A program made the position numbers and the translations under genes. A stretch of DNA of 64,000 nucleotides. Origin: an uncultured bacterium (GTDB lineage: Bacteria; Patescibacteriota; JAHJAL01). The notes beneath the pieces were generated by a model. The model was given only the letters and a program-made list of their open reading frames with translations. It did not search any database and was not told the DNA's origin. Where the stretch lies: the NCBI GenBank assembly GCA_938004065.1, contig CALKWM010000020.1:1813-65812 (forward strand). The letters are read 5' to 3'. Shown here one piece after another: positions 19,057-58,184 of this stretch. Numbering within the stretch: position 1 is the stretch's first letter; each line of letters begins with the position of its first letter.

Positions 19057-19060
19057 TTTT

Positions 19061-19351: not shown

Positions 19352-19379
19352 AATTTTTTAAGTTAAATGGTAAAAAATA

Positions 19380-33760: not shown

Positions 33761-35269
33761 TTACTTTGTGGATAAATCTTGGAGTTTGTACGAACACTCT
33801 TTAGCCTGCAGAAGCAGATCAAAGGGTGTTTTTAGTTTGTAGATTATGTTTCCATCTTTCAGTTGCAAGTTCGAAAATACGAATTTAAGTAATTGCCGTT
33901 TTTTGTCTATTTCCGAACTTTTGGCAAAAATTTGAGGGGCTTTGGAACAGACATTAAGCAGGAAGGTAACGGATTTTACGAATTTTTCGTCAGCTTCAGT
34001 ATGATCTTTCATAGACTGGGTAATTTCATATTGTCTATTTTTTAAATCTTTGGCTTTTTTGTCATATTGGTCCTGAGTAATACTCCTATTAATACATAGG
34101 TCCAAAAGAGTGTCGAGCGATAATTGAATTTTGCTGTATTCGGTTTGAAGATGAGTAATGCTATTTTTATGATATTCAATTTTGGCTTTGTGAGTTTGGT
34201 TGATTTGATTGATTAGATCAGCAAGGATGTCGTCTGGAATGACTAACAGATTAAGGATTCTATTAATTTCCTTTAGTAATTGTTTTTCTTCTATTCGAAT
34301 AGCTCCGTGTTTACCTTTTGATTCCGTGCATTTAAGGTAGATATATTTGTTTTTCTTTTTATCTGATGAAATAGCACAACCGCAGTTGGCGCAGGTCATC
34401 ATGCCACGACCTAGTATTGATTCGTATTTAGTGGACCACTTGAAAGGTTGTTTATGGTATCCCAGAATCACATCTTGGCATTTATCAAATAATTCTTTTG
34501 TAATTAAATTGCCGTGATAATGGGGATATAATTTTCCTTTGATTCTCATTTCCCCATAATAAAAGGGATTTGAAAGCATGCGATTGATTTGGCTATGAGC
34601 AAGAGGTTTTCTGGATGGACCTCTATTGGTTAATCCTTTCTTTTTCATTAATGTCGCTAATCCACGGACAGAATAGTTGCCGGTTGAGTATAGTTGAAAT
34701 ATTTCTTTGATTAGATAAGCTCGTTCTGAGTCGATAATGATAGATGTTTTATTTGTAAGAGGGTCTCTAGTATTTAGATAGCCGATGGGTGCTGTAGTTA
34801 TCCATTCGCCTTTTTTTATTTTTCCTTCTTGAGCTCGTTTGGTATTGTCACTGATTGCATCTGAGTAATATTTGGCTAGACCTAAATTTATTGTAAAATG
34901 AAACTTTTCGACGGCGGATATATTTGAGTTAATAACAAGGTTGTCTGAAACAAAATGCATTTCAATTTTGTCCTGCATCGTCATTTCGTAGAGATTAGCT
35001 ATTCTTTTATCGAATACATTTCTGGAAAATCTATCGACTTTATCAAAACAAACAATAATTTTTTCTTTTTGTTTTTTAATATAATCTATCATATTGTCAA
35101 AATCGTCTCTTTTACCTTTGTATGCTCCTTCGTCAAAACTGAATTTTTTCATTATTGAAAATTCTTTTCGTTGGCAATAAGCGATCATTCGATCGGTTTG
35201 GGCTGGTAAGGAATTACCGGCGTCTTTTTGTTCCTCAGTGGACACTCTAGCTAGTATGACGGCTTTCAT
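33761..35269 (-). CDS. Large serine recombinase (resolvase/integrase)
   Basis: The N-terminal resolvase catalytic domain is MKAVILARVSTEEQ...DRFSRNV. It is followed by a recombinase domain, the zinc ribbon CANCGCAI and a C-terminal coiled coil. The start is moved to MKAVIL. Confidence 0.85.
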   Translation of the reverse strand: MKAVILARVSTEEQKDAGNSLPAQTDRMIAYCQRKEFSIMKKFSFDEGAYKGKRDDFDNMIDYIKKQKEKIIVCFDKVDRFSRNVFDKRIANLYEMTMQDKIEMHFVSDNLVINSNISAVEKFHFTINLGLAKYYSDAISDNTKRAQEGKIKKGEWITTAPIGYLNTRDPLTNKTSIIIDSERAYLIKEIFQLYSTGNYSVRGLATLMKKKGLTNRGPSRKPLAHSQINRMLSNPFYYGEMRIKGKLYPHYHGNLITKELFDKCQDVILGYHKQPFKWSTKYESILGRGMMTCANCGCAISSDKKKNKYIYLKCTESKGKHGAIRIEEKQLLKEINRILNLLVIPDDILADLINQINQTHKAKIEYHKNSITHLQTEYSKIQLSLDTLLDLCINRSITQDQYDKKAKDLKNRQYEITQSMKDHTEADEKFVKSVTFLLNVCSKAPQIFAKSSEIDKKRQLLKFVFSNLQLKDGNIIYKLKTPFDLLLQAKECSYKLQDLSTK

Positions 35270-35369
35270 TTTGTAAAAAGTGATTATTGGTATAAAATTG
35301 AAGTAGTGTTTATAATCTAATGTTATCAAATGTTATCATTTTTATCAAAATTGTAAAGCGTTTATATAT

Positions 35370-35849
35370 ATGCTTTTGCAGGTCAAAAAAGCTTTAGAAC
35401 AGTTTGCGAGAGATTACTATTCTAATAATTGGTTTTTTAAGGAGCGTGAAGCTGTTAGTGCTTTTGCTTTGGGTTATTTACCTAGGCAATGCGCTGATGG
35501 TCAAAAACTATATCATCCGGCGCAAATAGGTGTTGAGTTTGCTGTTCCGCAACAGAAGTTGGATCCGACAAAACATTACAAAGCACAGGTTTGTAAAGAT
35601 GTTGTGATTTGGGGTAGTCCTTTTACTAGCTGTTGGGATGAGGATTGGGAGCCCGTTTATTTTCCGGATATGATTTTAGAATGGAAAGCTCATGTTTCTG
35701 GCATTGATCAAAAGGATAAAGATTGGCTGATGGAATATTCCAAGAAAGTACCTGATTTTGTAGGTATGTGTGTGACTCTGAATAATGATTCATTGTTTGG
35801 GATTGATATTTCAGATGGACGAGTGATTGGTGAGTGGAGGTATAGATAA
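35370..35849 (+). CDS. Hypothetical protein, paralog A of a tandem pair
   Basis: A 159-aa ORF. It shares FARDYY..W...EREA.S.F..GYL, HPAQIG.E..VP, W..PF, EWK and DKDWLMEYS with the next ORF. Confidence 0.5.
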   Translation: MLLQVKKALEQFARDYYSNNWFFKEREAVSAFALGYLPRQCADGQKLYHPAQIGVEFAVPQQKLDPTKHYKAQVCKDVVIWGSPFTSCWDEDWEPVYFPDMILEWKAHVSGIDQKDKDWLMEYSKKVPDFVGMCVTLNNDSLFGIDISDGRVIGEWRYR

Positions 35850-36334
35850 TGCGTAAAATGTCAGAACAAATATTTTCAGCTCTGGATAATTTTGCTCAAG
35901 ATTTTTTCAAGAACAAATGGATAATTCGCGAGCGGGAAGCTATCAGCTTTTTTGTATTTGGGTATTTATTGCCGGAAATAAAAGCTGAGGATGAGTTGCA
36001 TCATCCGGCACAGATAGGGATAGAGGTGCAAGTGCCGAAGTTGTTGGTCCATTACAATACCAAGAACAAGGATTTAATTTTTTGGCAGAAGCCTTTTGAA
36101 GTTGCTTATGATAGAAATAACCAAACTGCAAATTTTCCTTTGGTAGTAATGGAGTGGAAGGACCGGTTGTTTTCTTTGGATTCAAAGGATAAGCATTGGT
36201 TGATGGATTATTCGCGGGTGGTCCCGAGTGAATTTTTGGGGATTTGTTTGACAATCAATGAAGATAAAATATTTGGAGAGAATATTGCTAAAGGAGAAGT
36301 AATTAGAAGTTGGGAGATTTGTAAGAAGAATTAA
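35849..36334 (+). CDS. Hypothetical protein, paralog B of a tandem pair
   Basis: A 161-aa ORF whose start overlaps the stop of paralog A. It carries the same conserved blocks. Confidence 0.5.
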   Translation: MRKMSEQIFSALDNFAQDFFKNKWIIREREAISFFVFGYLLPEIKAEDELHHPAQIGIEVQVPKLLVHYNTKNKDLIFWQKPFEVAYDRNNQTANFPLVVMEWKDRLFSLDSKDKHWLMDYSRVVPSEFLGICLTINEDKIFGENIAKGEVIRSWEICKKN

Positions 36335-36355
36335 TATAGGTAATAAGATATATTT

Positions 36356-36565
36356 ATGGATAAAAAAATAGACAATGATGCTATTCCGGAGATGTCAAAG
36401 TTGCTTACCTTGAAGCAGGCTTGCGAGATATTGCAATGCCATCCCAATACTTTGAGGCAGTGGGATAAAAAAGGCATATTGAAAGCGATTAGAATTGGTA
36501 TTAAAAAAGCGAGAAGGTATAGGAGAGAGGATATTGAGAATTTTATTAACAAGAAAAATGATTAG
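36356..36565 (+). CDS. Excisionase-family helix-turn-helix DNA-binding protein (RDF-like)
   Basis: LLTLKQACEILQCHPNTLRQWDKKGILKAIRIG..ARRYRREDIENFI matches excisionase/MerR-type HTH proteins. Confidence 0.6.
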   Translation: MDKKIDNDAIPEMSKLLTLKQACEILQCHPNTLRQWDKKGILKAIRIGIKKARRYRREDIENFINKKND

Positions 36566-36619
36566 TTGTTGGTTATTGTAAGTCTGGTTTGATATAAATA
36601 TGTATTAGCAAAAGATGTA

Positions 36620-39600
36620 ATGAATAAAGTATTAGACAATAAAAAATCCAAAGTATCGGATGTGTTGCTGACTGAAATTGCCAAAGACGCAAAGATGTCG
36701 GTTGTATCCGCCTATTTTACAATATATGCTTTTGAGAAATTGAAAGAATCATTGTCGAAAATTGATTCTTTGCGGTTTTTGTTTGTGGAGCCGACTTTTA
36801 CCAAGGAGCAAGAAGAGATTCGGGAGTTTTATATCGACAAGCTCAATCGTGAAAAGCAATTGTCGGGAACGGAATATGAGATCAAGTTGAGAAATGAATT
36901 GACTCAGTCCAAAGTGGCGAAGGAATGTGCTGATTGGATAAGAAATAAAGTAGATTTTCGATCATTGAAGAAATCAGATCTTTCGCGGGCGAGAGCAATT
37001 CATGTCCAGAATCCTGATTCGGAGTTTATCGTGCAAGGAACGCTTGATTTTACTTCATCCGGATTGGGTTTTTCTACTTCCAACAAACTGGAAATGAATG
37101 TTTATTCTGATGATCAAGATGCAACCAAAGATATGTTGTCGTGGTTTGATGAAATTTGGAATAATGACAAGATGGTGGAGGATGTCAAAGAAGAGGTTTT
37201 AAAGAGTATTCAAACTATCTACAAAGAAAATACACCGGAGTTTGTTTATTTTGTTACTTTGTATAATTTATTTAAGAATTATCTGGATGAGTTGACGGAA
37301 GAAAATATTATCAAGTCGAGGACCGGTTTCAAGGATACGCTGATTTGGAATAAGTTATACAAGTTTCAGAAGGATGGAGTAATGGGAGTGATTGATAAGT
37401 TAGAAAAACACAATGGATGTATTTTGGCGGATAGTGTGGGTTTGGGAAAGACTTTTGAAGGTTTGGCGGTAATTAAATATTATGAATTGCGCAATCATCG
37501 AGTATTGGTTTTGTGTCCGAAAAAATTGAGGGACAATTGGATGATGTATCGGGCAAATGATGTGAGAAATGTTTTGGCAAATGATCGTTTTGGGTATGAT
37601 ATTTTGAATCATACTGATTTGAGTCGGACAAAGGGATTTTCCGGTGATATCAATTTGAGTACAGTGAATTGGGGTAATTATGATTTGGTCCTGATTGATG
37701 AATCGCATAATTTTAGAAATAATGATTCGCTAAAAAATAAAAAGACCAGATACAGAAGATTGATGGAAGATATTATTAGAAGCGGGGTCAAAACCAAGGT
37801 ATTGATGTTGTCGGCGACGCCGGTCAACAATCGGATGAATGATCTGAAGAATCAAATTGCTTTTATAACTGAGGCGAATGATAGCGCTTTGGTCCAAAAT
37901 GGAATTGTAAGCATTGGTAATACATTGAGAGTAGCTCAATATCAGTTTAATAAATGGCTGGAAAAACCGGTGGAAGAGCGAGGACTAGAATCGTTGTTGG
38001 CCAATCTGAATGTGGATTATTTCAAACTGTTGGATGCTTTGACGATTGCTCGTTCACGTAAACATATCGAGAAGTATTATGATTTGACGGAAGTGGGTAA
38101 ATTTCCGGACCGGTTGAAACCAAAAAATGTTAAAGCAAAAGTTGATTTGATTGGTGATTTTCCTAGTTTTGAAAATATTAATGATTCTATCAAACGATTG
38201 TCCTTGGCGATATATTCTCCTTTGCAATATGTGCGCTCGGATAAGGTCAAAAAATATCAAGAGAGATATGATATGGCGGTCAAAGATGGCACATCGACTT
38301 TCAAACAAACTGATCGTGAGAAAAATATTGTCAATTTGATGCGGGTAAATATTTTGAAGAGATTGGAAAGCTCAATTTATTCATATAATTTGACTTTGGG
38401 CAGATTGGCGGAAAAAATATCATCTTTACTGGCGACGATTGATTCATTTTCGGAATCGGAAAAATATGATTTGGATTTGGATGACGCGCCGGAAAGTATC
38501 GATGGTGATGATGAGCAATTGGAAGCGATGACGATTGGAAATAAAATAAGTGTGGAATTGGGTGATATGGATTTGATTCGATGGAAAGAAGATTTGGTGG
38601 ATGATTTGACGAGATTAAATGAATTGATAGAACAATCAAAACCGATTACGGCGGAAAGAGATGCAAAATTGGCGGAGCTAAAGAAATTGATTGCTGAAAA
38701 AATAAATAATCCAATCAATGATGGTAATAAGAAGATTGTAATTTTCAGTGCATTTGCTGATACGGCAGAGTATTTATACAAAGATATAGCTATCTGGGCG
38801 CAGGATACATTTAAAATTCATTCAGCCTTGGTAACCGGCGGAGGGTCTAATCAAACTACTTCCAAAGGAATTCAAACAGATTTGGGTAGTGTTTTGACCA
38901 ATTTTTCGCCGATATCAAAAGAGAAAGAAAAAATATATCCGGATGTCAAAGATGAGATAGATATTTTGATTGCTACTGATTGTGTATCGGAGGGTCAAAA
39001 TTTACAGGATTGTGATTGTTTGGTGAATTATGATATTCATTGGAATCCGGTTCGGATTATCCAAAGGTTTGGGCGTATTGATCGTATCGGATCAAAAAAT
39101 GATCGAATACAACTGGTGAATTTTTGGCCGGATATGGAACTGGATTCTTATATCAATCTGGAGCAACGGGTGCGAGGCAGAATGATTTTACTCAATGCTA
39201 ATGCGACTGGCGAGGAAGATATTATCAATGAGACTGACAAGGATGTGATGAATGATATTGAGTATCGCAAGAATCAATTGACGAGGTTGCAAGAAGAGGT
39301 ATTGGATCTGGAAGATATTTCCGGTAATATTTCGATTACTGATATGACGATGAATGATTTTAAGATGGATTTGATGGAGTATTTGAAAGATAATCGGAAA
39401 ATATTGGAGCAGGCTTCATTGGGAATGTATGCGATTGTGCCGAAAATTGATGCGATGGAAGAATTGTCATCCGGAGTTATTTTTACTTTGCGACAGGTGG
39501 ATTTTTCGGAGGCTAAATCGGGTGAGGCCAATGCTTTGCATCCATACTACATGGTTTATATTAGTGACGAAGGAGAAGTGAAATTAACTTATTTGCAGGC

Positions 39601-39877
39601 CAAGTATATTTTGGATATTTTCAAGAAGCTGTGCAATGGTGATGATGTTGTTCATCGAGATTTGGTGGAATTATTCAATCGGGAAACAAAGGAAGCCAAG
39701 GAGATGTACCATTATTCTCAATTACTTAAAGAATCGATTGAGCATATTATTGGAGAGAAGCAGGAAAAAGGCATGGGAGAACTTTTTGGCAGTCTGGGCA
39801 AGACTAATATCGCCAAAGACTCTTCACTGTCTTGGATTGATGATTTTGAGTTGATCTCATTTTTGATAATTAAATAA
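36620..39877 (+). CDS. SNF2/SWI2 helicase with N-terminal degenerate PLD-like domain
   Basis: Helicase motifs present are LADSVGLGKTFEGLAV, VLIDESHNFRNN, LMLSATPVNN and EGQNLQDCDCLVNYDIHWNPVRIIQRFGRIDRIGS. The N-terminal region aligns to the PLD domain of ORF 9828..13262, but the HKD motif reads AIHVQNPDSEFIVQGTLDFTSSG, with K changed to Q and GSxN degenerate. Confidence 0.8.
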   Translation: MNKVLDNKKSKVSDVLLTEIAKDAKMSVVSAYFTIYAFEKLKESLSKIDSLRFLFVEPTFTKEQEEIREFYIDKLNREKQLSGTEYEIKLRNELTQSKVAKECADWIRNKVDFRSLKKSDLSRARAIHVQNPDSEFIVQGTLDFTSSGLGFSTSNKLEMNVYSDDQDATKDMLSWFDEIWNNDKMVEDVKEEVLKSIQTIYKENTPEFVYFVTLYNLFKNYLDELTEENIIKSRTGFKDTLIWNKLYKFQKDGVMGVIDKLEKHNGCILADSVGLGKTFEGLAVIKYYELRNHRVLVLCPKKLRDNWMMYRANDVRNVLANDRFGYDILNHTDLSRTKGFSGDINLSTVNWGNYDLVLIDESHNFRNNDSLKNKKTRYRRLMEDIIRSGVKTKVLMLSATPVNNRMNDLKNQIAFITEANDSALVQNGIVSIGNTLRVAQYQFNKWLEKPVEERGLESLLANLNVDYFKLLDALTIARSRKHIEKYYDLTEVGKFPDRLKPKNVKAKVDLIGDFPSFENINDSIKRLSLAIYSPLQYVRSDKVKKYQERYDMAVKDGTSTFKQTDREKNIVNLMRVNILKRLESSIYSYNLTLGRLAEKISSLLATIDSFSESEKYDLDLDDAPESIDGDDEQLEAMTIGNKISVELGDMDLIRWKEDLVDDLTRLNELIEQSKPITAERDAKLAELKKLIAEKINNPINDGNKKIVIFSAFADTAEYLYKDIAIWAQDTFKIHSALVTGGGSNQTTSKGIQTDLGSVLTNFSPISKEKEKIYPDVKDEIDILIATDCVSEGQNLQDCDCLVNYDIHWNPVRIIQRFGRIDRIGSKNDRIQLVNFWPDMELDSYINLEQRVRGRMILLNANATGEEDIINETDKDVMNDIEYRKNQLTRLQEEVLDLEDISGNISITDMTMNDFKMDLMEYLKDNRKILEQASLGMYAIVPKIDAMEELSSGVIFTLRQVDFSEAKSGEANALHPYYMVYISDEGEVKLTYLQAKYILDIFKKLCNGDDVVHRDLVELFNRETKEAKEMYHYSQLLKESIEHIIGEKQEKGMGELFGSLGKTNIAKDSSLSWIDDFELISFLIIK

Positions 39878-39878
39878 A

Positions 39879-42630: not shown

Positions 42631-42640
42631 TAAAAAAAGT

Positions 42641-44323: not shown

Positions 44324-44406
44324 AATACATTTTTACTCTGTTGCTGGACCTAACAGACTAAACTTGACTAAACAATTTATAAACATAATTATATATTTAT
44401 GTCAAT

Positions 44407-47400
44407 ATGACAAAATTAAAATTACAATTTGATGCCAATCAGGAATTTCAAAAACAAGCTGTGGATGCGATAGTTGATGTTTTTGACGGGCAACCTTTGA
44501 AGCAATCAAAGTTTACAGTATCGGTGGCGGATGGTTCGTTGTTTGGTAAGAATACGGAGTTGGGATATGCAAATAAGTTGGATTTGATACCGGAAGATTT
44601 GTTTAAGAATGTTATCAAGATTCAGGACCGGAATCATTTGAAAAGAAGTGAAGGTTTGTTGGATGCGGATTATGGAGTGCCAAACTTTGCGATTGAGATG
44701 GAGACGGGGACAGGCAAAACTTATGTATATACGCGGACGATATTGGAATTGAATAATAAATACGGTTTTACCAAATTTATCGTCGTGGTCCCGAGTGTGG
44801 CTATCCGTGAAGGTGTGAATAAATCTTTGGATATTACCAAGGATCATTTTGAAGAATTGTATCAAGGCCAGAAGTTCAATTATTTTGTGTATAATTCGGA
44901 TCGTTTGACGGAGGTGCGTAATTTTGCGACCAGTGATTCAATCGAAATTATGGTTATCAATATTGATGCATTTCGTAAAGGTTTTGAAGAGGATAACAAG
45001 AGTAACAAGAATGCGACAAGGATACACAAAGAACAGGACAAGCTGGAAGGGCGACGGCCGATTGAATTTATTCGTGATACCAATCCAATTGTGATTATTG
45101 ATGAGCCACAGTCGGTTGATAATACCGAGAAATCCAAAGAAGCAATCAAGGCGCTCAATCCAATGTGTATCGTGCGTTATTCGGCTACTCATAGAAATAC
45201 TTATAATCTGATGTATAGGCTTGGTCCGATCGAGGCTTATGAAAATAAATTGGTCAAAAAGATTGAAGTGGTAGCGGTGGAAGGAATAGGTAGTGGTCCG
45301 TATATGAAGTTGGAAAAAGTGCAAAAAGCGCCTAATGGATCGTATTCGGCGGATGTGGTATTGAGCGTGTTGGATAAAAAAGGCGAAGCAAAAACGAAGA
45401 GAGTAAAAATCAATACCGGTAAGCGTAAGAGTTTTTTTGATGTGTCTGGACAAAATGAGATATACAGAAATTATGTGGTAACAAATATCAGTATTGAATC
45501 CGGAATGGAATATATTGAGTTTGAGACGGGTGATATCTTGAAGCTGAATCAAAATACAGATGATTTGGAAATTAAGCGTACTCAAATCAGGTCCACTATC
45601 GAATCGCATTTGGAAAAGGAATTGAGATTGTTGGATAAAAATATCAAAGTCTTGTCACTTTTCTTTTTGGACCGAGTAAATAATTATCGAGAGTATCTTA
45701 ATGAAGGTGGATTCAAGAAGGGAAGATATGCGCAGATTTTTGAGGAAGAATATTTGAAGATAATTAAATTGCCAAAGTATAATCAACTTTTTGTAACTGA
45801 AAAATCCAAACAATATGCTTTGTGTGAGGATGTTGACAAGATTCATGATGGATATTTTGCGCAGGACAAGAAAGGTATATTCAAAGAATCGCGGGGTGAA
45901 GGTGCAAGTCAAGCGGATGAGAGCGCTTATGATTTGATTATGAAGGACAAAGAAACGCTTTTGAGTTTTGATACGCCATTGCGCTTTATTTTTTCACATT
46001 CGGCTTTGAAAGAAGGCTGGGACAATCCGAATGTGTTTCAGATTTGTACTTTGGTGGAGAGTGCGGACACTATGACCAAAAGACAGAAGGTGGGGCGTGG
46101 TTTGCGTTTGCCGGTCAATCAATCAGGAGAGCGGATATTTGATGACAATATCAATATTTTGACGGTGGTGGCTAATGAAAGTTACCATAGCTTTGCCGAG
46201 AATTTGCAAAAGGAGATTGAAAAAGATACCAATACCAAATTTGGAGTAGTGGAAGAGCGATTGTTTGAGAATATATTGTTCGAAAAAGAAGGGAAAGTCG
46301 GAGAGCTGGGATATGAAGAGTCAAAAGAAATATGTGAATATTTGAGAGAGCAAGGCTGGGTGGACAAAAATGGTAAGGTAAAGGACGAATTGAGGCAAAT
46401 AGTGGCTCGGGAAGAAAGTGGCGAAGATGCCTTGGTTTTGCCGATGAAGTTTGCGTCAATCAAAAAGAAAATAGTGGAACAGATAAAGACTACATTGAAA
46501 CGATTGCCAATAGTAGATAGCAAAAAGAAAGAAAAGGTATCGATCAATAAGCAGGTATTTATGAGTGATGATTTTGTGGAGTTGTGGAATAGGATCAAAT
46601 ACAAGACCGTCTATCATCTGGATTTTGATAGTAAAATATTGGTTGAAAATTGTATTCATGAGGTCCGAAAGATGCCGGAAATCAAATCAAATGCGATTGT
46701 GGCGCGCTGGATTGATTTGGAGATTAACAAAAGGGGTGTGACATTTAATGAACCAACAATGATTCGTAATTATGTGCGTGATAAATATGATCAAAAACAA
46801 TTGCCGGATATTTTGCGTTATGTTGCCACGTATACCGGACTCAAAAAACGATCGATTGCGGATATTTTACTAAGGTCCCAGACCATAGATGCTTTTTATA
46901 TCAATCCGCAAGAATACATGGAGCAAGTGATTCAGATAATCAATATTGAGAAAAGAAAGTTGATTGTGGACGGTATCAAGTATGACAAGATTTGTGACGA
47001 TGTTTTTTATCAGCAAGAATTGTTTGAAAATGAGGAGTTGATTGGTTATCTCAAGGACAATGCCATTCAGGTAGGAAAGAGTGTTTATTCTCATGTTATT
47101 TATGATTCAGATATAGAGATGACTTTTGCCGAAAGACTGGAAAATGATGCTGATGTAAAACTTTATGCCAAATTACCCGATTGGTTCAAAATTGAAACTC
47201 CATTGGGTGATTACAATCCGGATTGGGCGATTTTGCTGGAGAAGAATGGAGTAGAGAAATTGTATTTTGTGATCGAGACAAAAGGGTCTATTTTGTCGGA
47301 AGATTTACGACCGATAGAGCAGGGGAAGATAGAATGTGGACAGAAGCATTTTGAGGCGCTGGGGACCGGAGTGAAGTTTGAGAAGGTGAGGAGTTATGAG

Positions 47401-47418
47401 GAGTGGCGCAGTATATAA
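44407..47418 (+). CDS. Type III restriction enzyme Res subunit (SF2 helicase + PD-(D/E)xK endonuclease)
   Basis: Walker A is AIEMETGTGKTYVY and motif II is VIIDEPQS. The C-terminus has the Res endonuclease signature YFVIETKG. Confidence 0.85.
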   Translation: MTKLKLQFDANQEFQKQAVDAIVDVFDGQPLKQSKFTVSVADGSLFGKNTELGYANKLDLIPEDLFKNVIKIQDRNHLKRSEGLLDADYGVPNFAIEMETGTGKTYVYTRTILELNNKYGFTKFIVVVPSVAIREGVNKSLDITKDHFEELYQGQKFNYFVYNSDRLTEVRNFATSDSIEIMVINIDAFRKGFEEDNKSNKNATRIHKEQDKLEGRRPIEFIRDTNPIVIIDEPQSVDNTEKSKEAIKALNPMCIVRYSATHRNTYNLMYRLGPIEAYENKLVKKIEVVAVEGIGSGPYMKLEKVQKAPNGSYSADVVLSVLDKKGEAKTKRVKINTGKRKSFFDVSGQNEIYRNYVVTNISIESGMEYIEFETGDILKLNQNTDDLEIKRTQIRSTIESHLEKELRLLDKNIKVLSLFFLDRVNNYREYLNEGGFKKGRYAQIFEEEYLKIIKLPKYNQLFVTEKSKQYALCEDVDKIHDGYFAQDKKGIFKESRGEGASQADESAYDLIMKDKETLLSFDTPLRFIFSHSALKEGWDNPNVFQICTLVESADTMTKRQKVGRGLRLPVNQSGERIFDDNINILTVVANESYHSFAENLQKEIEKDTNTKFGVVEERLFENILFEKEGKVGELGYEESKEICEYLREQGWVDKNGKVKDELRQIVAREESGEDALVLPMKFASIKKKIVEQIKTTLKRLPIVDSKKKEKVSINKQVFMSDDFVELWNRIKYKTVYHLDFDSKILVENCIHEVRKMPEIKSNAIVARWIDLEINKRGVTFNEPTMIRNYVRDKYDQKQLPDILRYVATYTGLKKRSIADILLRSQTIDAFYINPQEYMEQVIQIINIEKRKLIVDGIKYDKICDDVFYQQELFENEELIGYLKDNAIQVGKSVYSHVIYDSDIEMTFAERLENDADVKLYAKLPDWFKIETPLGDYNPDWAILLEKNGVEKLYFVIETKGSILSEDLRPIEQGKIECGQKHFEALGTGVKFEKVRSYEEWRSI

Positions 47419-47454
47419 GATACAGGAAAATTATTTTGTTTATTAGTATTTTTT

Positions 47455-48138
47455 ATGGATTTTTTTATGGCAAAAATAGAGAAAATGAGCAAAATAACTG
47501 CAAAAATAAAATTTTATGATGAGGAAATTGCAGGGAGAGATTCATTTGAATCAGAAAGTCTTACAAAAAGATTTTTAGAAAACATGAAAAATTTTCTCTA
47601 TCCAGCAGAAGTTGATTACTTGGCTTATAAAATGTTGGTTGAAGATGATGTGTGTGTTATGGCATCAATGACCAATTATCAACAAGCTGTAGAAAAATAC
47701 TTAAGATTTATAAAGTTGTATTTTTATGGAAAAGAATGTCCAAAAAGTAAACAAGGACATATGTATGATGTGATTGTACAAGATACAGATTTGAATACTG
47801 TTATTCCGGATATTACCAGAAAAGAGTTTGTAAAAATATGTAATGAGTTTTCAAGTTGGAGGTATCTTGATTTTAATTCAACAGTAACAAAAGATTTAAT
47901 GAAGATGAACATAGTATTAGATCAGTTTGTGTATGAATTTTGGAAATTATTGTGTGGGTCGCGTGGATTCGTGTTGATGTATAAAACATGTATCATTTCT
48001 GGCAATCCTCATTCTTTTATTCTCCCGCGTATATATCAGACAAATGGAGATTTGAGAAAAAAATATTTAAATTTATTGAAGAGAGATAATCAATATTTTG
48101 AGAAAATGGAGGAATTGTTTAAAAATTATAAATTTTGA
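47455..48138 (+). CDS. Hypothetical protein
   Basis: A 227-aa ORF with no recognisable motif. Confidence 0.4.
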   Translation: MDFFMAKIEKMSKITAKIKFYDEEIAGRDSFESESLTKRFLENMKNFLYPAEVDYLAYKMLVEDDVCVMASMTNYQQAVEKYLRFIKLYFYGKECPKSKQGHMYDVIVQDTDLNTVIPDITRKEFVKICNEFSSWRYLDFNSTVTKDLMKMNIVLDQFVYEFWKLLCGSRGFVLMYKTCIISGNPHSFILPRIYQTNGDLRKKYLNLLKRDNQYFEKMEELFKNYKF

Positions 48139-48147
48139 GGAGATAGA

Positions 48148-48468
48148 ATGAACTATGAAGAGTTAGTTTTGAAGGTTTTATATGAAAAACCCAATAAACC
48201 AGAAAATGTTGTTAAAAGTAAGCATGTTAAATTTGAAGAGTTGAAGATTGCATGTTTTGGTGATGATAATGTGCCGGATTCTAAATTGCTTGATTATGAA
48301 AGTATAGTAGAGCCTTTATTGGATGATTTGAGAAATCTTGAAAATAAAGGATTGATAAAAAATAATTGGCTTGGAGAGAATGTAATTGAACCACTTAGCA
48401 CTTTTATTACTGAAAGAGGAATAAAATACTATACTGATATGTTTTTGGAAGAGAGCTATGATGAGTAG
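48148..48468 (+). CDS. Hypothetical protein
   Basis: A 106-aa ORF with an RBS-like GAGGAG upstream. Confidence 0.4.
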   Translation: MNYEELVLKVLYEKPNKPENVVKSKHVKFEELKIACFGDDNVPDSKLLDYESIVEPLLDDLRNLENKGLIKNNWLGENVIEPLSTFITERGIKYYTDMFLEESYDE

Positions 48469-49643
48469 TATTTATGAATAGTGTAGTATTTGAATTGTTG
48501 TTCTCTTAGATTAGATAGTTTTGTAGGTGTAAACTCTTGCAATTGTTTTTCAACATCGATTAATAAATTATATTTTCCATTTTTTGGGATATTGAGATTG
48601 GATAATTTTCTTTTCAATTTATACCAATAAGAGTGGTTCCGAGCTGTGTCGATGATGTTTCTGAGTTGATTGTGACTGCTGGAATTGATGGCAGTGATTG
48701 CTCCGGATAATTCTAGAATCTGTCTTGCTTTGAGACTCGGATTATTTGTTTTTATTATTTCCATGGTCTCGATTGGTGATTTGCCGCTAAGTAGTAGCAT
48801 TTCTTTGTTTTTGGTCAGTTCTTGCCAGAAGTATTGGAGGACCTTTTGGGATGTGCTTTGTTTAAATAACTGCTTGAAGGTTAAGATTTGGTCAATGCTG
48901 TTTTCTTTGAGGATGCTTTTGATTTTGGCTGTTTTGTTTAGTCTTATTTCTAGTCTCAAAATATTTCTAAATTTAGGTTGGTTTATTTCATCGAGAAGAT
49001 TTAGTTGAATGGAATTGTCATTTTCGATTGCTCTTTTATCTGAGGTTTGGGCTTGTTCGAGATCCTTGATTTTGTCATAAATAACTATTTCATAACTATT
49101 GGCGTGCAATTGAAAAGATTGTCCGCCATTTCTGAATATGACTTTGTTTTCCGTTAGTCTGGGAAATGGATTTAGTTTATGTAATTCAGTGATGATCATG
49201 GGAGGAGTGGTGTGATAGGGTAGGGGAATATTTTTTGAGTAATGGATAGCGGTAACCGGAGCATTATCTAAATGATGATCAAATAATCTAATACCCATAT
49301 TATCGAGAGTGTCTTTTAGTAATTGGAAAATTTTTGGATAGTCCGCATCCGTAAGTTCGTCAAAATTATTTTTGTATAACAGTTTTGGAAGTGATAATTC
49401 GATTCTTAGCTTGATAATTGGTCCGAATAATCCCATTACTGCAATCAAGGTAATTCTTGGTTTATAAATTCTTGAGCGCAATTCTTGTTTGGTTGGATTT
49501 TGGATCCATTTCTTGTTTTGTCGATGTTTAAGATGGCTTATTTCTTCTGAAAAAAGTTTGCTATTGGTATATGGGGAAAATTTACCATAGTCCCAGATTG
49601 AAAACCAATTAATTGGGAATGTTAAAACTATCGTATCGATCAT
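48456..49643 (-). CDS. Rolling-circle replication initiator, Rep_trans family (pT181 RepC / phage CRI-like)
   Basis: KVIFRNGGQSFQLHANSYEIVIYDK matches the Rep_trans catalytic Tyr block (cf. ...YFG....RFIRIYNK). LRLEIRLNK matches the conserved WRVEIELKR block. Confidence 0.55.
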   Translation of the reverse strand: MIDTIVLTFPINWFSIWDYGKFSPYTNSKLFSEEISHLKHRQNKKWIQNPTKQELRSRIYKPRITLIAVMGLFGPIIKLRIELSLPKLLYKNNFDELTDADYPKIFQLLKDTLDNMGIRLFDHHLDNAPVTAIHYSKNIPLPYHTTPPMIITELHKLNPFPRLTENKVIFRNGGQSFQLHANSYEIVIYDKIKDLEQAQTSDKRAIENDNSIQLNLLDEINQPKFRNILRLEIRLNKTAKIKSILKENSIDQILTFKQLFKQSTSQKVLQYFWQELTKNKEMLLLSGKSPIETMEIIKTNNPSLKARQILELSGAITAINSSSHNQLRNIIDTARNHSYWYKLKRKLSNLNIPKNGKYNLLIDVEKQLQEFTPTKLSNLREQQFKYYTIHKYYSS

Positions 49644-49920
49644 TAGCTTGCATTACTTTTTTGAATTGATTAATAACTTCTCTTTCTATGATTTGAGAAG
49701 TTTCTTTATTGATAGGGTGAAATAACTGAATATGATTATCACCTATTTTTTTAGTGGGATAGGTGAGTCGGTAACCTTCTTGATTGAGCTTGCTATGAAT
49801 GCCTATTGAGCTAAGATATATCTTGTTATCTAAGACAAAACTAGCAAAAGCAATTAAACCATTATGAGCTTTGATTGGAATGATTTGAATTTCGGTTATT
49901 CTGGTTGTCACTTTTTTCAT
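49609..49920 (-). CDS. spoVG: SpoVG-family DNA/RNA-binding protein
   Basis: ITEIQIIPIKAHNGLIAFASFVLDNKIYLSSIGIHSK...YRLTYPTKKIGDNHIQLFHPINKETSQIIEREV is collinear with SpoVG. Confidence 0.75.
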   Translation of the reverse strand: MKKVTTRITEIQIIPIKAHNGLIAFASFVLDNKIYLSSIGIHSKLNQEGYRLTYPTKKIGDNHIQLFHPINKETSQIIEREVINQFKKVMQANDRYDSFNIPN

Positions 49921-50140
49921 TGTTTTGGTTCATTTCAATTAATAAATTGACGTAGTTAAAAAGATTTTCAAATGCTTCTTCGACCTCAGGTTCGCTGAGT
50001 TGCGGAAAATATTTTTGACCAAGTTTTTTGCGGTTTTCTGAAAGCATTAAAAAATCGACTTATATTTGTAAGTCGATAATAAAATGAAATTGTATTGTAA
50101 AACGGGATTTCCTAGCCGTTCCTAACGAATCCTAAGAAAT

Positions 50141-50857
50141 CTATTTCTTAAAATCAAGAATTGTGAGAAGTCCAAAATGGGTTTTTTCTAAATGATTTTT
50201 TGTAATTGGGTTTGTAAATTTTATAATTTCCTTATTGATGGTAAAGAAAAGTTTTTTAGATTTATCTTTGAATCCTAAATCATTGATGATGCCAGATATA
50301 TCACGTTTTGATTCTAGCTCAGCATTTTTAATAACGTCTTGAGTTTTTAGGTCTTGGTTGGGGTTGTTAATCAAATATCTAATGAGTTTGTTGCTGTCTT
50401 TTCCATAGACAGGCGTATGAATTACTATGTTGTTTAGAAGTAATTGATCTGTTTCTTCGTTGAACGATAGCTCGTATATAATGTCTTCTTTTTTCATGAT
50501 CTTAGTTCTTTTATCAAATTTATCAGCGAGTTTTTTATAATAGGGTGGAAACTTGTTGCTCAATTCGATTAGATATTCCACGCATTGTGGATCTTCTTTC
50601 TCAACTTGATTAATAGTTAGGTTTCTATCGTAATCGTAAGGATCATATGAATTTTTACTTCTATACTCGATTGAATGTATTTTGAATAATTCATTATCTT
50701 GGGATAACTTTTTAATCAAGAGATGAAACTCATGGTAAAAGGGTGCAAGAGCCTCTGGTTCAATGCGAATATAGTCATTTGAAGATGTGATTTGAGATTT
50801 TTCATAAATATACTGGACCAATTTCCAGATTTTTCCTTCGTATTTTTCGTTGTTCAT
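50141..50857 (-). CDS. Hypothetical protein
   Basis: A 238-aa ORF. Confidence 0.4.
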   Translation of the reverse strand: MNNEKYEGKIWKLVQYIYEKSQITSSNDYIRIEPEALAPFYHEFHLLIKKLSQDNELFKIHSIEYRSKNSYDPYDYDRNLTINQVEKEDPQCVEYLIELSNKFPPYYKKLADKFDKRTKIMKKEDIIYELSFNEETDQLLLNNIVIHTPVYGKDSNKLIRYLINNPNQDLKTQDVIKNAELESKRDISGIINDLGFKDKSKKLFFTINKEIIKFTNPITKNHLEKTHFGLLTILDFKK

Positions 50858-50947
50858 AATGCATTACGTTTTTATTGTTATTATTACTGTATATATTATA
50901 TATTTTATAATATTTTTCGGGTTATAATATATATGAGGAGTAAAAAT

Positions 50948-51448
50948 ATGATTAAAAATATCTCCGAAAAATATAAGAATGTAATTATCTATTTTGCCAT
51001 AAAGATTCGTAATGGTACTTTGGGCGTTTTAAAGTTGGCCAAATTGATGTACTACCTAGATTTTGATTTTTTTGAGAAATATGGAAAATCTGTAACTGGT
51101 GATGAGTATCTGAGGTTTGACAGAGGTCCGGTTCCTAGAATGTTTAAAAAGTGTATTGATGAAATGGATGGAAAAGAGATAAAGGTTATAAAAAAGAAAT
51201 TGGGAAATGGTTATAATGATCAACAATGCATAGAGCCATTGGTTGGTTTTAATAACTCATATTTTACTAAGAATGAATTAGTCATGATGGATGAGATAGC
51301 TGATAAATGGGAAAAAATGACAGGAACAGAAATGAAACATGCTAGTCACGGTGAAGCTCCTTGGATTGCAACCAAAAAAGACGCAGTTATTGATTATAAT
51401 CTTGCATATTATCGCAATAAATATAGCGAAATGGATGCAAAGGAGTGA
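50948..51448 (+). CDS. Panacea-domain (SocA-like, DUF4065) putative antitoxin
   Basis: LKLAKLMYYLDFDFFEKYGKSVTGDEYLRFDRGPVP is the core of the Panacea/DUF4065 domain. The start is moved to MIKNISEKY. Confidence 0.65.
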   Translation: MIKNISEKYKNVIIYFAIKIRNGTLGVLKLAKLMYYLDFDFFEKYGKSVTGDEYLRFDRGPVPRMFKKCIDEMDGKEIKVIKKKLGNGYNDQQCIEPLVGFNNSYFTKNELVMMDEIADKWEKMTGTEMKHASHGEAPWIATKKDAVIDYNLAYYRNKYSEMDAKE

Positions 51449-51795
51449 AATTGGAGATAAAGTGTCATTCTGATATTGATAAAGATTTGAAGAATTTAAA
51501 AAAGTGTGCCGATCCCTTGGGTTCACTTGAATCATGGGAGAGACTTTTTCTAGTTAAAGGAATTAATGAAACTCCAGGAATTGATCCTTATCCTGGTTTT
51601 GGAGATAAAAAAATCTATAAGGCAAGAGTAGTTCCATTGAAAGAGAATCGTGGCAAATCTGATGGTTATAGATTGGTTTTTCAACTAATATCCAATGATT
51701 GTATAAAACTTGTAGCATATTACAGACATAATGCTGGTAAGCTAAAAAAAGAAAGTAAGGTTATGGGTGTTGTAAAATCGAGGTTATTGGATTAA
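51445..51795 (+). CDS. RelE/ParE-superfamily toxin-like protein
   Basis: Its start overlaps the Panacea stop. ...KKIYKARV...GKSDGYRLVFQLISNDCIKLVAYYRH matches RelE/ParE C-terminal beta-strands. Confidence 0.5.
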   Translation: MKLEIKCHSDIDKDLKNLKKCADPLGSLESWERLFLVKGINETPGIDPYPGFGDKKIYKARVVPLKENRGKSDGYRLVFQLISNDCIKLVAYYRHNAGKLKKESKVMGVVKSRLLD

Positions 51796-52069
51796 TGCAT
51801 GTGACAAAGTTTAGTATTGTTTCATGAAATGAGATAATATCGAGGTAGTATTTAGTTCGAAACATGTCAATGAGGGGGAGTGCTTTTTTTAAGTAGAGTA
51901 TAGTAGTTGGTTTTGAAAGTGGATAAATAAATTGTGAATAAAAAAAATATGATAGAGAACAATTTGTGAATGAGGGTTTATTAATATAAATTTAATCTAA
52001 TTATTAGATTATTTTAATGTGGTATATTATTAAATTGTTAATATGTTTTAAAATAGTAATATTAAAAAA

Positions 52070-52264
52070 ATGGGGGGGGATGAAATGGAAAAGGAATTAC
52101 CAAAGGTGGTAATTGTTGGTGAGAGATTTTATGCCGGACTAAGATCGATAGGATCAAATTCCAAGAAGTACAAAGCTGAGAAATATGAAACGGCAGATAG
52201 TTTTATCAATCATTTTTCAGCAAATATTAATGGATTGGATGAGTGTGCATTAGTGGTTGTTTAA
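52070..52264 (+). CDS. Small hypothetical protein
   Basis: A 64-aa ORF immediately preceding and coupled to 52265..53170. Confidence 0.3.
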   Translation: MGGDEMEKELPKVVIVGERFYAGLRSIGSNSKKYKAEKYETADSFINHFSANINGLDECALVVV

Positions 52265-57753: not shown

Positions 57754-57767
57754 TATTATATTAAAAA

Positions 57768-58110: not shown

Positions 58111-58184
58111 TTTTGCAAGCGATAAGCAATAAGCTTTGGGCGGTAAGTTTACAAAGATCAATTTATTTTGGTTTTTTTTGAAAA

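What the first reader, a model, noticed from the sequence alone, without database searches (positions are those of the whole stretch)
33761..51795. Island 2 rides on an integrative/replicative element: serine recombinase, excisionase-like HTH, Rep_trans, SpoVG, Panacea-RelE TA
A large serine recombinase (33761-35269) abuts the 3' end of a Nudix gene. It is followed by two tandem paralogous unknowns, an excisionase-family HTH protein, the five-gene SNF2/Type III module, two unknowns, a Rep_trans rolling-circle initiator with an overlapping SpoVG homolog, and a Panacea-domain/RelE-like addiction pair. This combination of recombinase, RDF, Rep and TA suggests a plasmid- or ICE-like element that integrates and can replicate, with the defense module as its cargo.
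Basis: partly seen in the sequence, partly recalled or inferred. Interest (0 to 1): 0.55.

Follow-up and report, generated by a model that had tools for sequence, protein, structure and literature searches.

The report
Integrative mobile element carrying defence genes
This stretch is a real 18-kb mobile element of a large, apparently undescribed family in the tiny-celled Patescibacteria; it inserts with a serine recombinase, carries a phage-like DNA-nicking protein, and ferries anti-phage defence genes between genomes.

Summary
Comparison with relatives shows an integrative mobile element of about 18.1 kb, window 33781-51881.

- **Boundaries.** A sister copy (92-95% DNA identity) lies in a different genome context. 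Its similarity to the window starts exactly at 33781 and stops at 51881. A GGAGT core sits at both junctions.
- **Backbone.** It recurs in more than eight Patescibacteria loci. It consists of a large serine recombinase whose reading frame crosses the att junction, an HTH_17 protein, and a small-ORF/SpoVG-like/'Rep' operon. The genes between these parts differ from element to element.
- **Cargo here.** A Type III restriction-modification system with SNF2, DUF4391 and Schlafen-like genes, plus a Panacea toxin-antitoxin pair.
- **Integration site.** Relatives sit in tRNA 3' ends (Asn, once Gln). The window copy sits at a non-tRNA site 40 bp after the Nudix gene.
- **'Rep'.** It fails the Pfam Rep_trans model. 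It belongs to an unannotated family of about 1,400 clusters that is homologous to the filamentous-phage gpII nickase (Phage_CRI), with the catalytic tyrosine aligned.
- **Not confirmed.** The RelE label.
- **Inferred, not shown.** Replication or transfer.

This is a new variant of a known kind, resembling the integrative mobilizable elements (IMEs) of Firmicutes.

The parts
33781..33785 (.). Recombinase-side att junction core GGAGT. Element DNA begins here, inside the last codons of the recombinase gene.
   Evidence: Similarity to sister element L040 (92.4% identity) starts exactly at 33781. The window and L037 diverge after ...ACAAACTCC.
33761..35269 (-). Large serine recombinase (integrase), 502 aa. 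Its C-terminal codons and stop lie in flanking (attB-derived) DNA.
   Evidence: Pfam Resolvase 2e-19, Recombinase 3.5e-14, Zn_ribbon_recom 1.6e-5. RVST catalytic motif. It is 83% identical to P0390 and at least 90% identical to P0512, both at tRNA genes.
35370..36334 (+). Two tandem paralogous genes of unknown function (159 and 161 aa), treated as cargo or accessory.
   Evidence: 41% identity, E 7e-45. No family hits. Also present in L037 and L040.
36356..36565 (+). HTH_17 (excisionase/MerR-type) DNA-binding protein. It is a conserved backbone gene and a candidate regulator or recombination directionality factor.
   Evidence: PF12728 3.8e-13. An HTH_17 gene (HTH_3 in L005) lies upstream of the recombinase in L005, L007-L016 and L038.
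36620..47418 (+). Defence cargo: SNF2 helicase (36620-39877), DUF4391 (39879-40670), Type III methyltransferase (40660-42630), SLFN_AlbA_2/HATPase_c_4 protein (42641-44323) and Type III restriction enzyme (44407-47418).
   Evidence: Pfam. PADLOC MTase_III 2.9e-199, REase_III E=0, HKD+Snf2 1e-150. The module is present in L004 and L034/L040, and is replaced by other cargo in L005, L013, L010, L035 and L038.
47455..48468 (+). Two unknown genes (227 and 106 aa) at the end of the cargo block.
   Evidence: Homologs in L004, at 42% and 67% identity. No family hits.
48456..49643 (-). gpII-like (Phage_CRI / Rep_trans superfamily) tyrosine nickase, 395 aa. It is the candidate rolling-circle initiator or relaxase, with predicted catalytic Tyr188.
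   Evidence: About 1,400 cluster representatives. hhalign against the M13 gpII family gives E 1.4e-4 and score 42.5, versus 18.3+-2.6 for shuffles. Family member L039 passes the PF05144 cutoff. AF2 pLDDT is 84 and Tyr188 lies in a beta-strand.
49609..49920 (-). SpoVG-domain protein (103 aa), overlapping the nickase gene by 35 nt. It is a conserved partner of the nickase.
   Evidence: PF04026 3.1e-8. A SpoVG gene sits immediately upstream of and overlapping the Rep gene in every relative examined.
49862..50047 (-). Conserved 61-aa ORF, the first gene of the small-ORF/SpoVG/nickase operon.
   Evidence: 68% identical to the L004 counterpart. ORFs of 54-69 aa occupy the same position in the other elements.
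50054..50140 (-). Conserved non-coding region. It holds three TAGGA repeats and an invariant hairpin (TCGACTTA...TAAGTCGA) plus a T-run that ends 6 nt before the operon start codon. It is a candidate origin, operator or attenuator.
   Evidence: The hairpin stem is invariant across four elements whose neighbouring 238-aa gene is only 36% identical.
50141..50857 (-). 238-aa protein of unknown function. It is a frequent backbone gene, with homologs of 243-468 aa in relatives.
   Evidence: 36% identical to L004_243 (E 8e-39) and 26% to L013_371 (E 1e-12). No family hits.
50948..51795 (+). Panacea-domain antitoxin (50948-51448) and an overlapping 116-aa putative toxin (51445-51795). Both lie inside the element.
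   Evidence: PF13274 2.1e-17. The pair is present in sister element L034 and absent from L035. The toxin is unassigned.
51843..51881 (+). Conserved terminal sequence of the element, AGGTAGTATTTAGTTCGAAACATGTCAATGAGGGGGAGT. It ends in the att core GGAGT (51877-51881), and host DNA follows.
   Evidence: Shared by the window, L034, L035 and L004, after which all four diverge into unrelated flanks.

Best explanation
Window 33781-51881 is an 18.1-kb integrative mobile element. It belongs to a large family that, among the few homologs carrying an organism name, is seen only in Patescibacteria.

**Shown**
- The element has defined ends.
- Close copies lie in other chromosomal contexts.
- The backbone is conserved while the cargo varies.

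**Inferred mechanism**
1. The large serine recombinase recombines an attP (...CAATGAGGG-GGAGT-TTGTACGAAC...) with a chromosomal site that shares the GGAGT core. That site is normally the 3' end of tRNA-Asn(GTT), and in the sister copy tRNA-Gln.
2. The recombinase reading frame runs across the junction, so its C-terminus changes on excision.
3. The HTH_17 protein acts as regulator or directionality factor.
4. After excision, the gpII-like nickase (Tyr188) nicks an origin. It is made from a small-ORF/SpoVG/nickase operon that sits behind an invariant hairpin. The origin is probably the conserved repeat-plus-hairpin region at 50054-50140.
5. Nicking either starts rolling-circle replication of the circle or hands a single strand to a transfer apparatus. 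The SpoVG-like protein would serve as the nucleic-acid-binding accessory.
6. The Panacea toxin-antitoxin pair stabilises the element. The Type III R-M/SNF2/DUF4391/Schlafen block is exchangeable defence cargo.

**This copy**
It sits at a non-tRNA secondary site 40 bp downstream of the Nudix gene.
For: **Ends**
- Sister element L040/L034 matches the window from exactly 33781 (92.4%) and up to 51881 (95.1%). Its flanks differ: tRNA-Gln/Peptidase_A8 on one side and dCMP deaminase/DUF711 on the other.
- L035 and L004 share only the roughly 50-nt terminal sequence before they diverge.
- GGAGT lies at both junctions.

**Mobility in the family**
- L013 and L014 carry a 7.4-kb element at 99.7% identity in different flanks. 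It has GCTCCCCC repeats and sits in a tRNA-Asn gene.
- Tandem accretion is seen in L005 and L008.

**Backbone and cargo**
- The backbone recurs with cargo of Type III R-M, Type I R-M, RrnaAD methyltransferase or SHOCT genes.

**Nickase**
- The profile-profile match to the gpII family gives E 1.4e-4 and z about 9 against shuffles.
- It aligns Y188-x-K190 with gpII Y197-x-K199, R229/E231 with R243/E245, and S83/K86/G90/N92 with S94/K97/G101/N103.
- A clear family member (253 bits) passes the Pfam Phage_CRI threshold.
- The family's invariant residues include Y188, K190, R229 and E231.
- Tyr188 lies in a beta-strand of a confident model. PMC5714925 states that this is the rule for Rep_trans-type enzymes.

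**Recombinase**
- The recombinase has its catalytic motif and full domain set.
Against: - No circular form, excision junction or empty site was observed.
- The window protein itself hits no Rep_trans or Phage_CRI HMM.
- Foldseek of its model against the PDB gave no significant match, and the solved Rep_trans structures do not appear in the list.
- Rep_trans motif I (RxD) is replaced by A-I-H.
- The window copy lacks the tRNA target seen in all relatives, so it may be stranded.
- GC content equals that of the flanks, 0.349 against 0.351 and 0.358.
- No origin or nick site has been demonstrated.
Confidence: 0.78

Rival explanations
1. The element is an integrative mobilizable element. The gpII-like protein is mainly a relaxase (MOBT-like) that nicks an oriT and pilots single-stranded DNA through a type IV secretion system encoded elsewhere in the Patescibacteria chromosome. 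It would not mainly be a replication initiator.
For: - Rep_trans-type enzymes serve as relaxases of Firmicutes ICEs and IMEs (PMC5714925; titles).
- Patescibacteria almost universally encode a monoderm-type T4SS but almost no recognisable relaxases. [quoted passage not shown]
- The element carries no T4SS genes of its own.
- The smallest relatives are only 6-7 kb of backbone.
Against: - No coupling protein or oriT has been identified.
- There is no consistent linkage to T4SS genes in the flanks.
- gpII, the closest detectable relative, is a replication initiator.
- The two roles are not mutually exclusive, as with ICEBs1 NicK.
Confidence: 0.3
2. This copy is an immobilised remnant. After landing in, or being rearranged into, a non-tRNA site, it can no longer excise and persists only as a chromosomal defence island.
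For: - All relatives examined abut a tRNA gene at the recombinase end: Asn in L005, L007, L010-L016, L037 and L038, and Gln in L040. The window abuts the Nudix gene instead.
- The same junction is found in two slightly different strains (99.956% identity).
- No empty site was found.
Against: - All backbone ORFs are intact and 83-95% identical to copies at tRNA sites.
- GGAGT cores at both junctions fit a normal recombinase-mediated insertion.
- Serine integrases can excise from pseudo-sites.
Confidence: 0.3
3. The element is a defective or satellite filamentous (inovirus-like) prophage. It would use the gpII homolog for single-stranded DNA production and rely on a helper for packaging.
For: - The nickase is homologous to inovirus gpII.
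- It integrates at tRNA genes, and several small ORFs are present.
- Foldseek against BFVD gives two viral proteins at E about 1e-7, both unnamed.
Against: - No morphogenesis ATPase (pI/Zot), coat or adsorption proteins are present.
- None of the ten unassigned genes tested (35370-36334 and 47455-53170) has a PHROG hit with a known function.
- There is no tblastn match in 50,697 phage genomes.
- Only 1 relative was found in 2.9 million IMG/VR contigs, although the family has about 1,400 clusters.
Confidence: 0.05
4. The region is an ordinary, vertically inherited chromosomal region whose gene combination only resembles a mobile element.
For: - GC content and GC skew match the flanks.
- No long att repeats are present.
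Against: - Near-identical copies lie in unrelated contexts with base-precise ends.
- Cargo is swapped between elements whose Rep proteins are 87-91% identical.
Confidence: 0.02

Closest known systems
Integrative and mobilizable elements (IMEs) of Firmicutes that carry a serine or tyrosine integrase and a Rep_trans (MOBT-type) relaxase, such as the Streptococcus IMEs (PMC5357655, PMC5704250, PMC7563843)
   Same: - Compact integrated elements with an integrase at one end.
- A tyrosine nickase related to rolling-circle initiators.
- No T4SS of their own.
- tRNA or gene 3'-end targets, tandem accretion and variable cargo.
   Different: - The host phylum is Patescibacteria.
- The nickase fails the Rep_trans HMM and is nearer to gpII.
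- It has a conserved SpoVG-like partner and small-ORF operon.
- Mobilisation is untested, and no coupling protein or oriT is known.
ICEBs1 of Bacillus subtilis, whose Rep_trans relaxase NicK drives both transfer and plasmid-like rolling-circle replication after excision (as summarised in PMC5714925)
   Same: - An integrated element at a tRNA gene.
- Excision is followed by nicking by a tyrosine nickase outside the HUH (His-hydrophobic-His motif) family. This model explains why an integrative element needs a Rep.
   Different: - ICEBs1 uses a tyrosine integrase with Xis and carries a full T4SS.
- The window element has a serine recombinase, no T4SS and a different nickase branch.
Filamentous-phage replication initiator gpII of M13/f1 (Pfam Phage_CRI PF05144 plus PF05155)
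   Same: - N-terminal MIDxxVLxxP.
- Colinear E-x-S-x-PK..L..G.N, Y-x-K and L-x-R-x-E motifs.
- Profile-profile E 1.4e-4 over 259 columns, with the nicking tyrosine aligned.
   Different: - 13% identity.
- The window protein is below the Pfam threshold.
- The context is not a phage, since no morphogenesis genes are present.
- The RID motif is replaced by AIH.
pT181-family rolling-circle plasmids (RepC/RepD, Pfam Rep_trans PF02486)
   Same: - Motif pattern RIEF..KL, IY-[ND]-K and LxRxE.
- A hairpin plus U-run immediately before the rep operon start resembles the pT181 repC attenuator. This point rests on my own knowledge.
   Different: - No HMM or significant hhalign match to RepC alone (E 0.33, 12 columns).
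- No Foldseek match to solved Rep_trans structures.
Large serine integrases of phages and transposons (phiC31, Bxb1, TndX, Ccr), cited from my own knowledge
   Same: - Resolvase, Recombinase and zinc-ribbon architecture.
- A short crossover core instead of long repeats.
- The integrase gene lies next to attP.
   Different: - tRNA 3' ends are the usual target.
- The integrase ORF reads across the junction into attB-derived sequence.

Membership tests
Large serine recombinase | Resolvase catalytic domain with the RVST serine motif, plus Recombinase and zinc-ribbon domains | tested here: met
   Pfam PF00239 2e-19, PF07508 3.5e-14, PF13408 1.6e-5. N-terminus MKAVILARVSTEEQ.
Rep_trans (PF02486) | Match to the Pfam Rep_trans HMM | tested here: not met
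   No hit for the window protein, even at E<=10 for 42 family members. hhalign against RepC alone gives E 0.33 over 12 columns.
Rep_trans (PF02486) | Active-site motifs: N' Asp, I RxD, III YxKxxE, IV W/LxRxE (PMC5714925) | tested here: inconclusive
   The family alignment shows a near-invariant N-terminal Asp (MID), Y188-D-K190-x-x-D193 and [VI]-L-R229-x-E231. Motif I is A-I-H133 instead of RxD.
Rep_trans (PF02486) | Catalytic Tyr on a beta-strand, and fold similar to the solved Rep_trans structures | tested here: inconclusive
Phage_CRI / gpII (PF05144) | Match to the family profile | tested here: met
   The window protein alone is below threshold. A 182-sequence family profile against the gpII family profile gives E 1.4e-4, Prob 52.7 and score 42.5. 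Controls: shuffles 18.3+-2.6 (max 24.4), reversed 17.8. Family member L039 (253 bits to the family) passes the PF05144 gathering cutoff, 22.7 against 21.7.
Phage_CRI / gpII (PF05144) | Nicking tyrosine (gpII Tyr197, from my own knowledge) conserved and aligned | tested here: met
   Invariant Y188/K190 of the family align with invariant Y197/K199 of the gpII family.
SpoVG (PF04026) | SpoVG domain; orthology to the septation regulator SpoVG | tested here: inconclusive
   The Pfam domain is met, 34.1 bits against 29.6. The NCBIfam equivalog is far below its cutoff, 33.9 against 108. The protein is therefore a SpoVG-fold paralog and not the housekeeping gene.
Panacea (PanA) toxin-antitoxin pair | A Panacea-domain antitoxin adjacent to, or overlapping, a toxin gene | tested here: met
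   PF13274 2.1e-17. A 4-nt overlap with the downstream 116-aa ORF. The pair is conserved in L034.
RelE/ParE toxin | Match to a RelE/ParE family model or fold | tested here: not met
   No Pfam hit (E<=5), and none in NCBIfam, PADLOC or PDB sequences. One PHROG hit of unknown function at E 0.0098. AF2 single-sequence pLDDT 44.6 is unusable.
Integrative mobilizable element (IME) | Own integrase, own relaxase and oriT, and no mating-pore genes | tested here: inconclusive
   The integrase is present. No T4SS domains occur in the element. The nickase could be a relaxase but this is untested, and no oriT is identified.
Integrative conjugative element (ICE) | Encodes its own T4SS (VirB4, coupling protein) | tested here: not met
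   No such domains occur in any of the element's ORFs.
Type III restriction-modification system | Mod methyltransferase plus Res helicase-nuclease | tested here: met
   PADLOC MTase_III 2.9e-199 and REase_III E=0. Pfam N6_N4_Mtase, and ResIII plus RE_endonuc.
Excisionase / recombination directionality factor | A small DNA-binding protein that controls the direction of recombination | not testable with these tools
   The HTH_17 domain is present and its position is conserved. Function cannot be inferred from sequence.

The most novel reading that the evidence does not exclude
The unannotated gpII-like nickase family (about 1,400 clusters at 50% identity), together with its SpoVG-like partner, may be the 'missing relaxase' of Patescibacteria. 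On this reading, these tRNA-targeting elements are the natural DNA substrates of the near-universal but relaxase-less T4SS of this phylum. They would then be a main route of gene flow, including defence systems, among ultra-small episymbiotic bacteria. They would also offer a ready-made integrase/attB/replicon toolkit for their genetics.
Probability: 0.2. Interest if true: 0.85.

Novelty: new variant of a known kind. Interest (0 to 1): 0.62.

Why it matters
- **Little is known about mobile DNA in this phylum.** Patescibacteria (CPR) are a huge, mostly uncultured part of bacterial diversity. Their mobile elements, plasmids and routes of gene exchange are barely described. Four full-text searches (three on Patescibacteria mobile elements, one on IMEs and rolling-circle enzymes) found no description of this element family.
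- **What the data define.** They give a widespread family with a base-precise attachment logic: tRNA-Asn or tRNA-Gln 3' ends, a GGAGT/GCTCCCCC core, and an integrase ORF that spans the junction. They also give a new branch of the gpII/Rep_trans nickase superfamily with an unexpected SpoVG-like partner. Defence systems appear as swappable cargo.
- **What it makes testable.** It offers a candidate for the relaxases that a recent survey could not find next to the ubiquitous Patescibacteria T4SS (PMC12102498).
- **Practical use.** It offers native parts (integrase, attP/attB, putative origin) for genetic tools in organisms where such tools are scarce.

Tried and rejected
- **Long att repeats.** I searched for long direct or inverted repeats at both ends. 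Nothing exceeded chance. The 10-mer GTGGATAAAT (33768 and 51919) was considered as an att core and rejected once relatives fixed the ends at 33781 and 51881.
- **Empty site or synteny in relatives.**
  - Exact-protein look-ups of the Nudix and the 301-aa flank gene found only filled sites.
  - A metagenome scan with Nudix gave one 45% relative without synteny.
  - A genome scan with the ABC-F neighbour gave no close relative.
- **Assembly-break idea.** SRR6007447 contigs end at 34064 and start at 51852, not at the junctions. This was uninformative.
- **Rep assignment.**
  - HMM libraries (Pfam, NCBIfam, PHROGs) gave nothing.
  - PDB sequence and profile searches gave nothing.
  - Foldseek against the PDB gave nothing significant.
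  - tblastn against phage genomes found no match, and against plasmid collections only two chance-level matches (E 0.3).
  - The first hhalign with the 42-sequence profile was only marginal, E 0.05-0.07. It became significant with the 182-sequence profile.
- **RelE test.** There were no hits, and the single-sequence AF2 model was too poor to search.
- **Circular junction.** A search for the predicted attP 25-mer in IMG/VR found none.
- **Rfam.** A scan of the window found only the two tRNA-Ser genes.
- **Hairpin at 50054-50077.** Read as a simple terminator, it is possible but leaves no room for a promoter or RBS before the operon. I therefore also list it as a candidate attenuator or origin, without evidence either way.

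Full report
**What is in the sequence**

| Coordinates | Product | Evidence |
|---|---|---|
| 33761-35269(-) | Large serine recombinase: Resolvase, Recombinase and zinc-ribbon domains; N-terminal ARVSTEEQ catalytic motif | |
| 35370-36334 | Two tandem paralogs, 41% identical | |
| 36356-36565 | HTH_17/MerR-type protein | |
| 36620-47418 | SNF2 helicase, DUF4391, Type III methyltransferase, Schlafen/AlbA_2-HATPase_c_4 protein, Type III Res enzyme | Pfam; PADLOC MTase_III 2.9e-199 and REase_III E=0, |
| 47455-48468 | Two unknowns | |
| 49609-49920(-) | SpoVG-domain protein, overlapping the 395-aa gene by 35 nt | PF04026, 34 bits against cutoff 29.6, |
| 50948-51448 | Panacea-domain protein | |
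| 51445-51795 | Overlapping 116-aa ORF | |

- The recombinase gene ends 20 nt after the stop of a NUDIX gene.
Both turn out to be conserved backbone genes.
- Two labels failed. The 395-aa protein hits no Pfam, NCBIfam, PHROG or PDB-sequence model. The 116-aa 'RelE-like' protein hits nothing, and its single-sequence model is unusable.

**Source organism**

The same sequence occurs in a metagenome assembly and in a MAG (GCA_036848155.1). The named homologs of the 395-aa protein all come from Patescibacteria, so the window is most likely a Patescibacteria (CPR) chromosome fragment.

**The 395-aa protein: a divergent gpII/Rep_trans-type nickase**

- It has 760 homologs in the word-indexed search and about 1,400 cluster representatives in the exhaustive one. 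They are about 380 aa long, and none has a precomputed Pfam domain.
- Invariant residues include E81, S83, P85, K86, N91-F93, H133, Y188, K190, R229, E231 and R233.
- AlphaFold with the family alignment gives a confident model (pLDDT 84, pTM 0.84) with Tyr188 on a beta-strand.
- By eye, the protein shares several motifs with M13 gpII, in the same order: the N-terminus MIDxxVLxxP, an E-x-S-x-PK..L..G.N block, a Y-x-K motif and an L-x-R-x-E motif. It also shares RIEF..KL, IY[ND]K and LxRxE with pT181 RepC.
- I tested this formally. A 38-sequence gpII family alignment (all PF05144+PF05155) compared with the 42-sequence family profile gave only E 0.07.
- With a 182-sequence family profile, hhalign gave Prob 52.7, E 1.4e-4 and score 42.5 over 259 columns. 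Sixty block-shuffled controls gave 18.3+-2.6 (max 24.4), and the reversed alignment gave 17.8.
- The alignment places the family's invariant Y188/K190 on gpII's invariant Y197/K199, and R229/E231 on R243/E245.
- Independently, an unambiguous family member on an IMG/VR contig (253 bits to the family HMM) passes Pfam's own gathering threshold for Phage_CRI (22.7 against 21.7 bits).
- The review PMC5714925 lists the Rep_trans motifs (N' Asp, RxD, YxKxxE, W/LxRxE), notes that the catalytic Tyr lies in a beta-sheet, and says the same motifs occur in Phage_CRI. Our family has all of these except RxD, which is A-I-H.
The specific Pfam label is not.

**A conserved backbone with variable cargo**

Genomic contexts of homologs show the same arrangement again and again. 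The order is: often a 240-620-aa unknown, then a 54-69-aa ORF, then SpoVG, then the nickase (overlapping SpoVG), then variable genes, then HTH_17, sometimes more variable genes, and finally a large serine recombinase.

| Locus | Cargo |
|---|---|
| L005 | Plain Type III R-M |
| L013-L016 | RrnaAD methyltransferase and an S26 peptidase |
| L007-L012 | SHOCT and small unknowns |
| L035 (Rep 87% identical to the window's) | Type I HsdR, DUF4411 and M78 peptidase |
| L004, L034/L040 and the window | SNF2/DUF4391/Type III block |

The defence module is therefore exchangeable cargo. The Panacea pair is present in L034 but absent from L035.

**Mobility and ends in the family**

- L013 and L014 carry a 7.4-kb element at 99.7% identity in different flanks.
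- The recombinase end overlaps a tRNA-Asn(GTT) gene by 15 nt, and GCTCCCCC(T) is repeated at both junctions.
- tRNA-Asn also abuts the recombinase in L005, L007, L010-L012, L015, L016, L037 and L038.
- L005 and L008 show tandem accretion.

**Ends of the window element**

- The sister element lies on two contigs of GCA_016294905.1. It matches the window from exactly 33781 (L040, 92.4%) and up to 51881 (L034, 95.1%).
- Its flanks are tRNA-Gln(TTG)/Peptidase_A8 on one side and a terminator/dCMP deaminase on the other.
- L035 and L004 share with the window only the terminal sequence AGGTAGTATTTAGTTCGAAACATGTCAAT(G/A)AGGGGGAGT. All four copies then diverge.
- L037 has a recombinase 83% identical to the window's. 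It shares ...GTACAAACTCC with the window and then runs into tRNA-Asn, whereas the window runs into the Nudix downstream region.
- The element is therefore 33781-51881, about 18.1 kb, with GGAGT at both junctions.
- In the window copy and all tRNA-site relatives whose junction was read (L005, L013, L037, L040), the recombinase ORF reads across the junction into attB-derived DNA.
- The inferred attP is ...CAATGAGGG-GGAGT-TTGTACGAAC...
- The window copy is the only one examined that lacks a tRNA at the recombinase end. ARAGORN and Rfam find only two tRNA-Ser genes in the window.
- Insertion into a secondary site that shares the GGAGT core is the simplest explanation. A later rearrangement cannot be excluded.
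- No empty site or circular junction could be found with the scans available.

**How it most likely works**

- Shown: the element has ends, moves between contexts and swaps cargo.
- Inferred: the serine recombinase integrates and excises it, with the conserved HTH_17 protein as regulator or directionality factor.
- Inferred: the nickase acts on the excised circle, with Tyr188 as nucleophile. It starts rolling-circle replication, initiates single-strand transfer, or does both, as ICEBs1 NicK does (PMC5714925).
- The DNA between the 238-aa gene and the small ORF is conserved even where the neighbouring protein is only 36% identical. It has three TAGGA repeats and an invariant hairpin plus T-run ending 6 nt before the operon's start codon.
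- That region is my candidate for the origin, operator or attenuator. The resemblance to the pT181 repC attenuator comes from memory and is untested.
- The SpoVG-like protein is always coupled to the nickase. I take it to be a nucleic-acid-binding accessory, which is speculation.
- The Panacea pair probably stabilises the element.

**Rivals**

- A pure relaxase (IME) reading is attractive. [quoted passage not shown] Nothing here tests it.
- An inovirus-like prophage is unlikely. There are no morphogenesis genes, no tblastn hit in phage genomes and only one relative in IMG/VR.
- Vertical inheritance is contradicted.
- This particular copy may be stranded at its unusual site.

**Novelty and score**

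- The kind of element is known from Firmicutes: an integrative element with a serine integrase, a nickase related to rolling-circle initiators, a toxin-antitoxin pair and defence cargo.
- Several things are new as far as the libraries and literature searches show. These are the phylum, the unannotated nickase branch with its SpoVG-like partner and small-ORF operon, the junction-spanning integrase ORF, and the defined tRNA-Asn/Gln target.
- I rate it a new variant of a known kind, with interest 0.62.

Noticed in passing
window 57696-58225: A 42-nt direct repeat (97.6% identity; AAGTGGT(C/T)GCCTCTTCGGCGACCTGCCGATGAGGCAGGTTGA) lies at 57709-57750 and 58184-58225. It flanks a GIY-YIG ORF (57768-58043) and the intact tRNA-Ser(GCT) at 58021-58111. 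The upstream copy is preceded by a partial tRNA-Ser 5' fragment (GGAGGGTTGGCT). This looks like a small GIY-YIG mobile insertion at the tRNA gene.
   Followed up: partly
window ~18600-19700: GC skew changes sign from mildly negative to strongly positive (0.3-0.5), and gene orientation flips with it. This suggests a replication origin or terminus inside the window.
   Followed up: no
L005 6517, 9435 and 17418-17493; L008 908-2602: Relatives show tandem accretion at tRNA-Asn. L005 has two extra GCTCCCCC remnants bracketing a HipA_C/HIRAN segment. L008 has a second, unrelated serine recombinase directly upstream of the element.
   Followed up: partly
window 54255-55601: The beta-CASP metallo-beta-lactamase just outside the element carries a precomputed hit to the Anti-Pycsar Apyc1 family (PF23023) in the gene tables. 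A similar MBL with this hit flanks the sister element in L034. It may simply be a general MBL nuclease.
   Followed up: no
L013 14957-17125; L007 8913-9257: In some relatives, host genes close to the tRNA-Asn target include a DUF87/TrwB-type ATPase and a T4SS pilin. That places T4SS components a few kb from the integration site. In L014 and L038 the flanks differ.
   Followed up: no
window 50054-50140: The invariant hairpin plus T-run ends 6 nt before the start codon of the small-ORF/SpoVG/nickase operon. This leaves no room for a separate promoter or ribosome-binding site, so the operon must be read through the hairpin.
   Followed up: partly
BFVD hits to model m5ad1f2118ecf: Two viral proteins (A0A345MVG1, A0A345MP47; 364 and 382 aa) match the nickase model at E about 1e-7 and TM about 0.5.
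   Followed up: no
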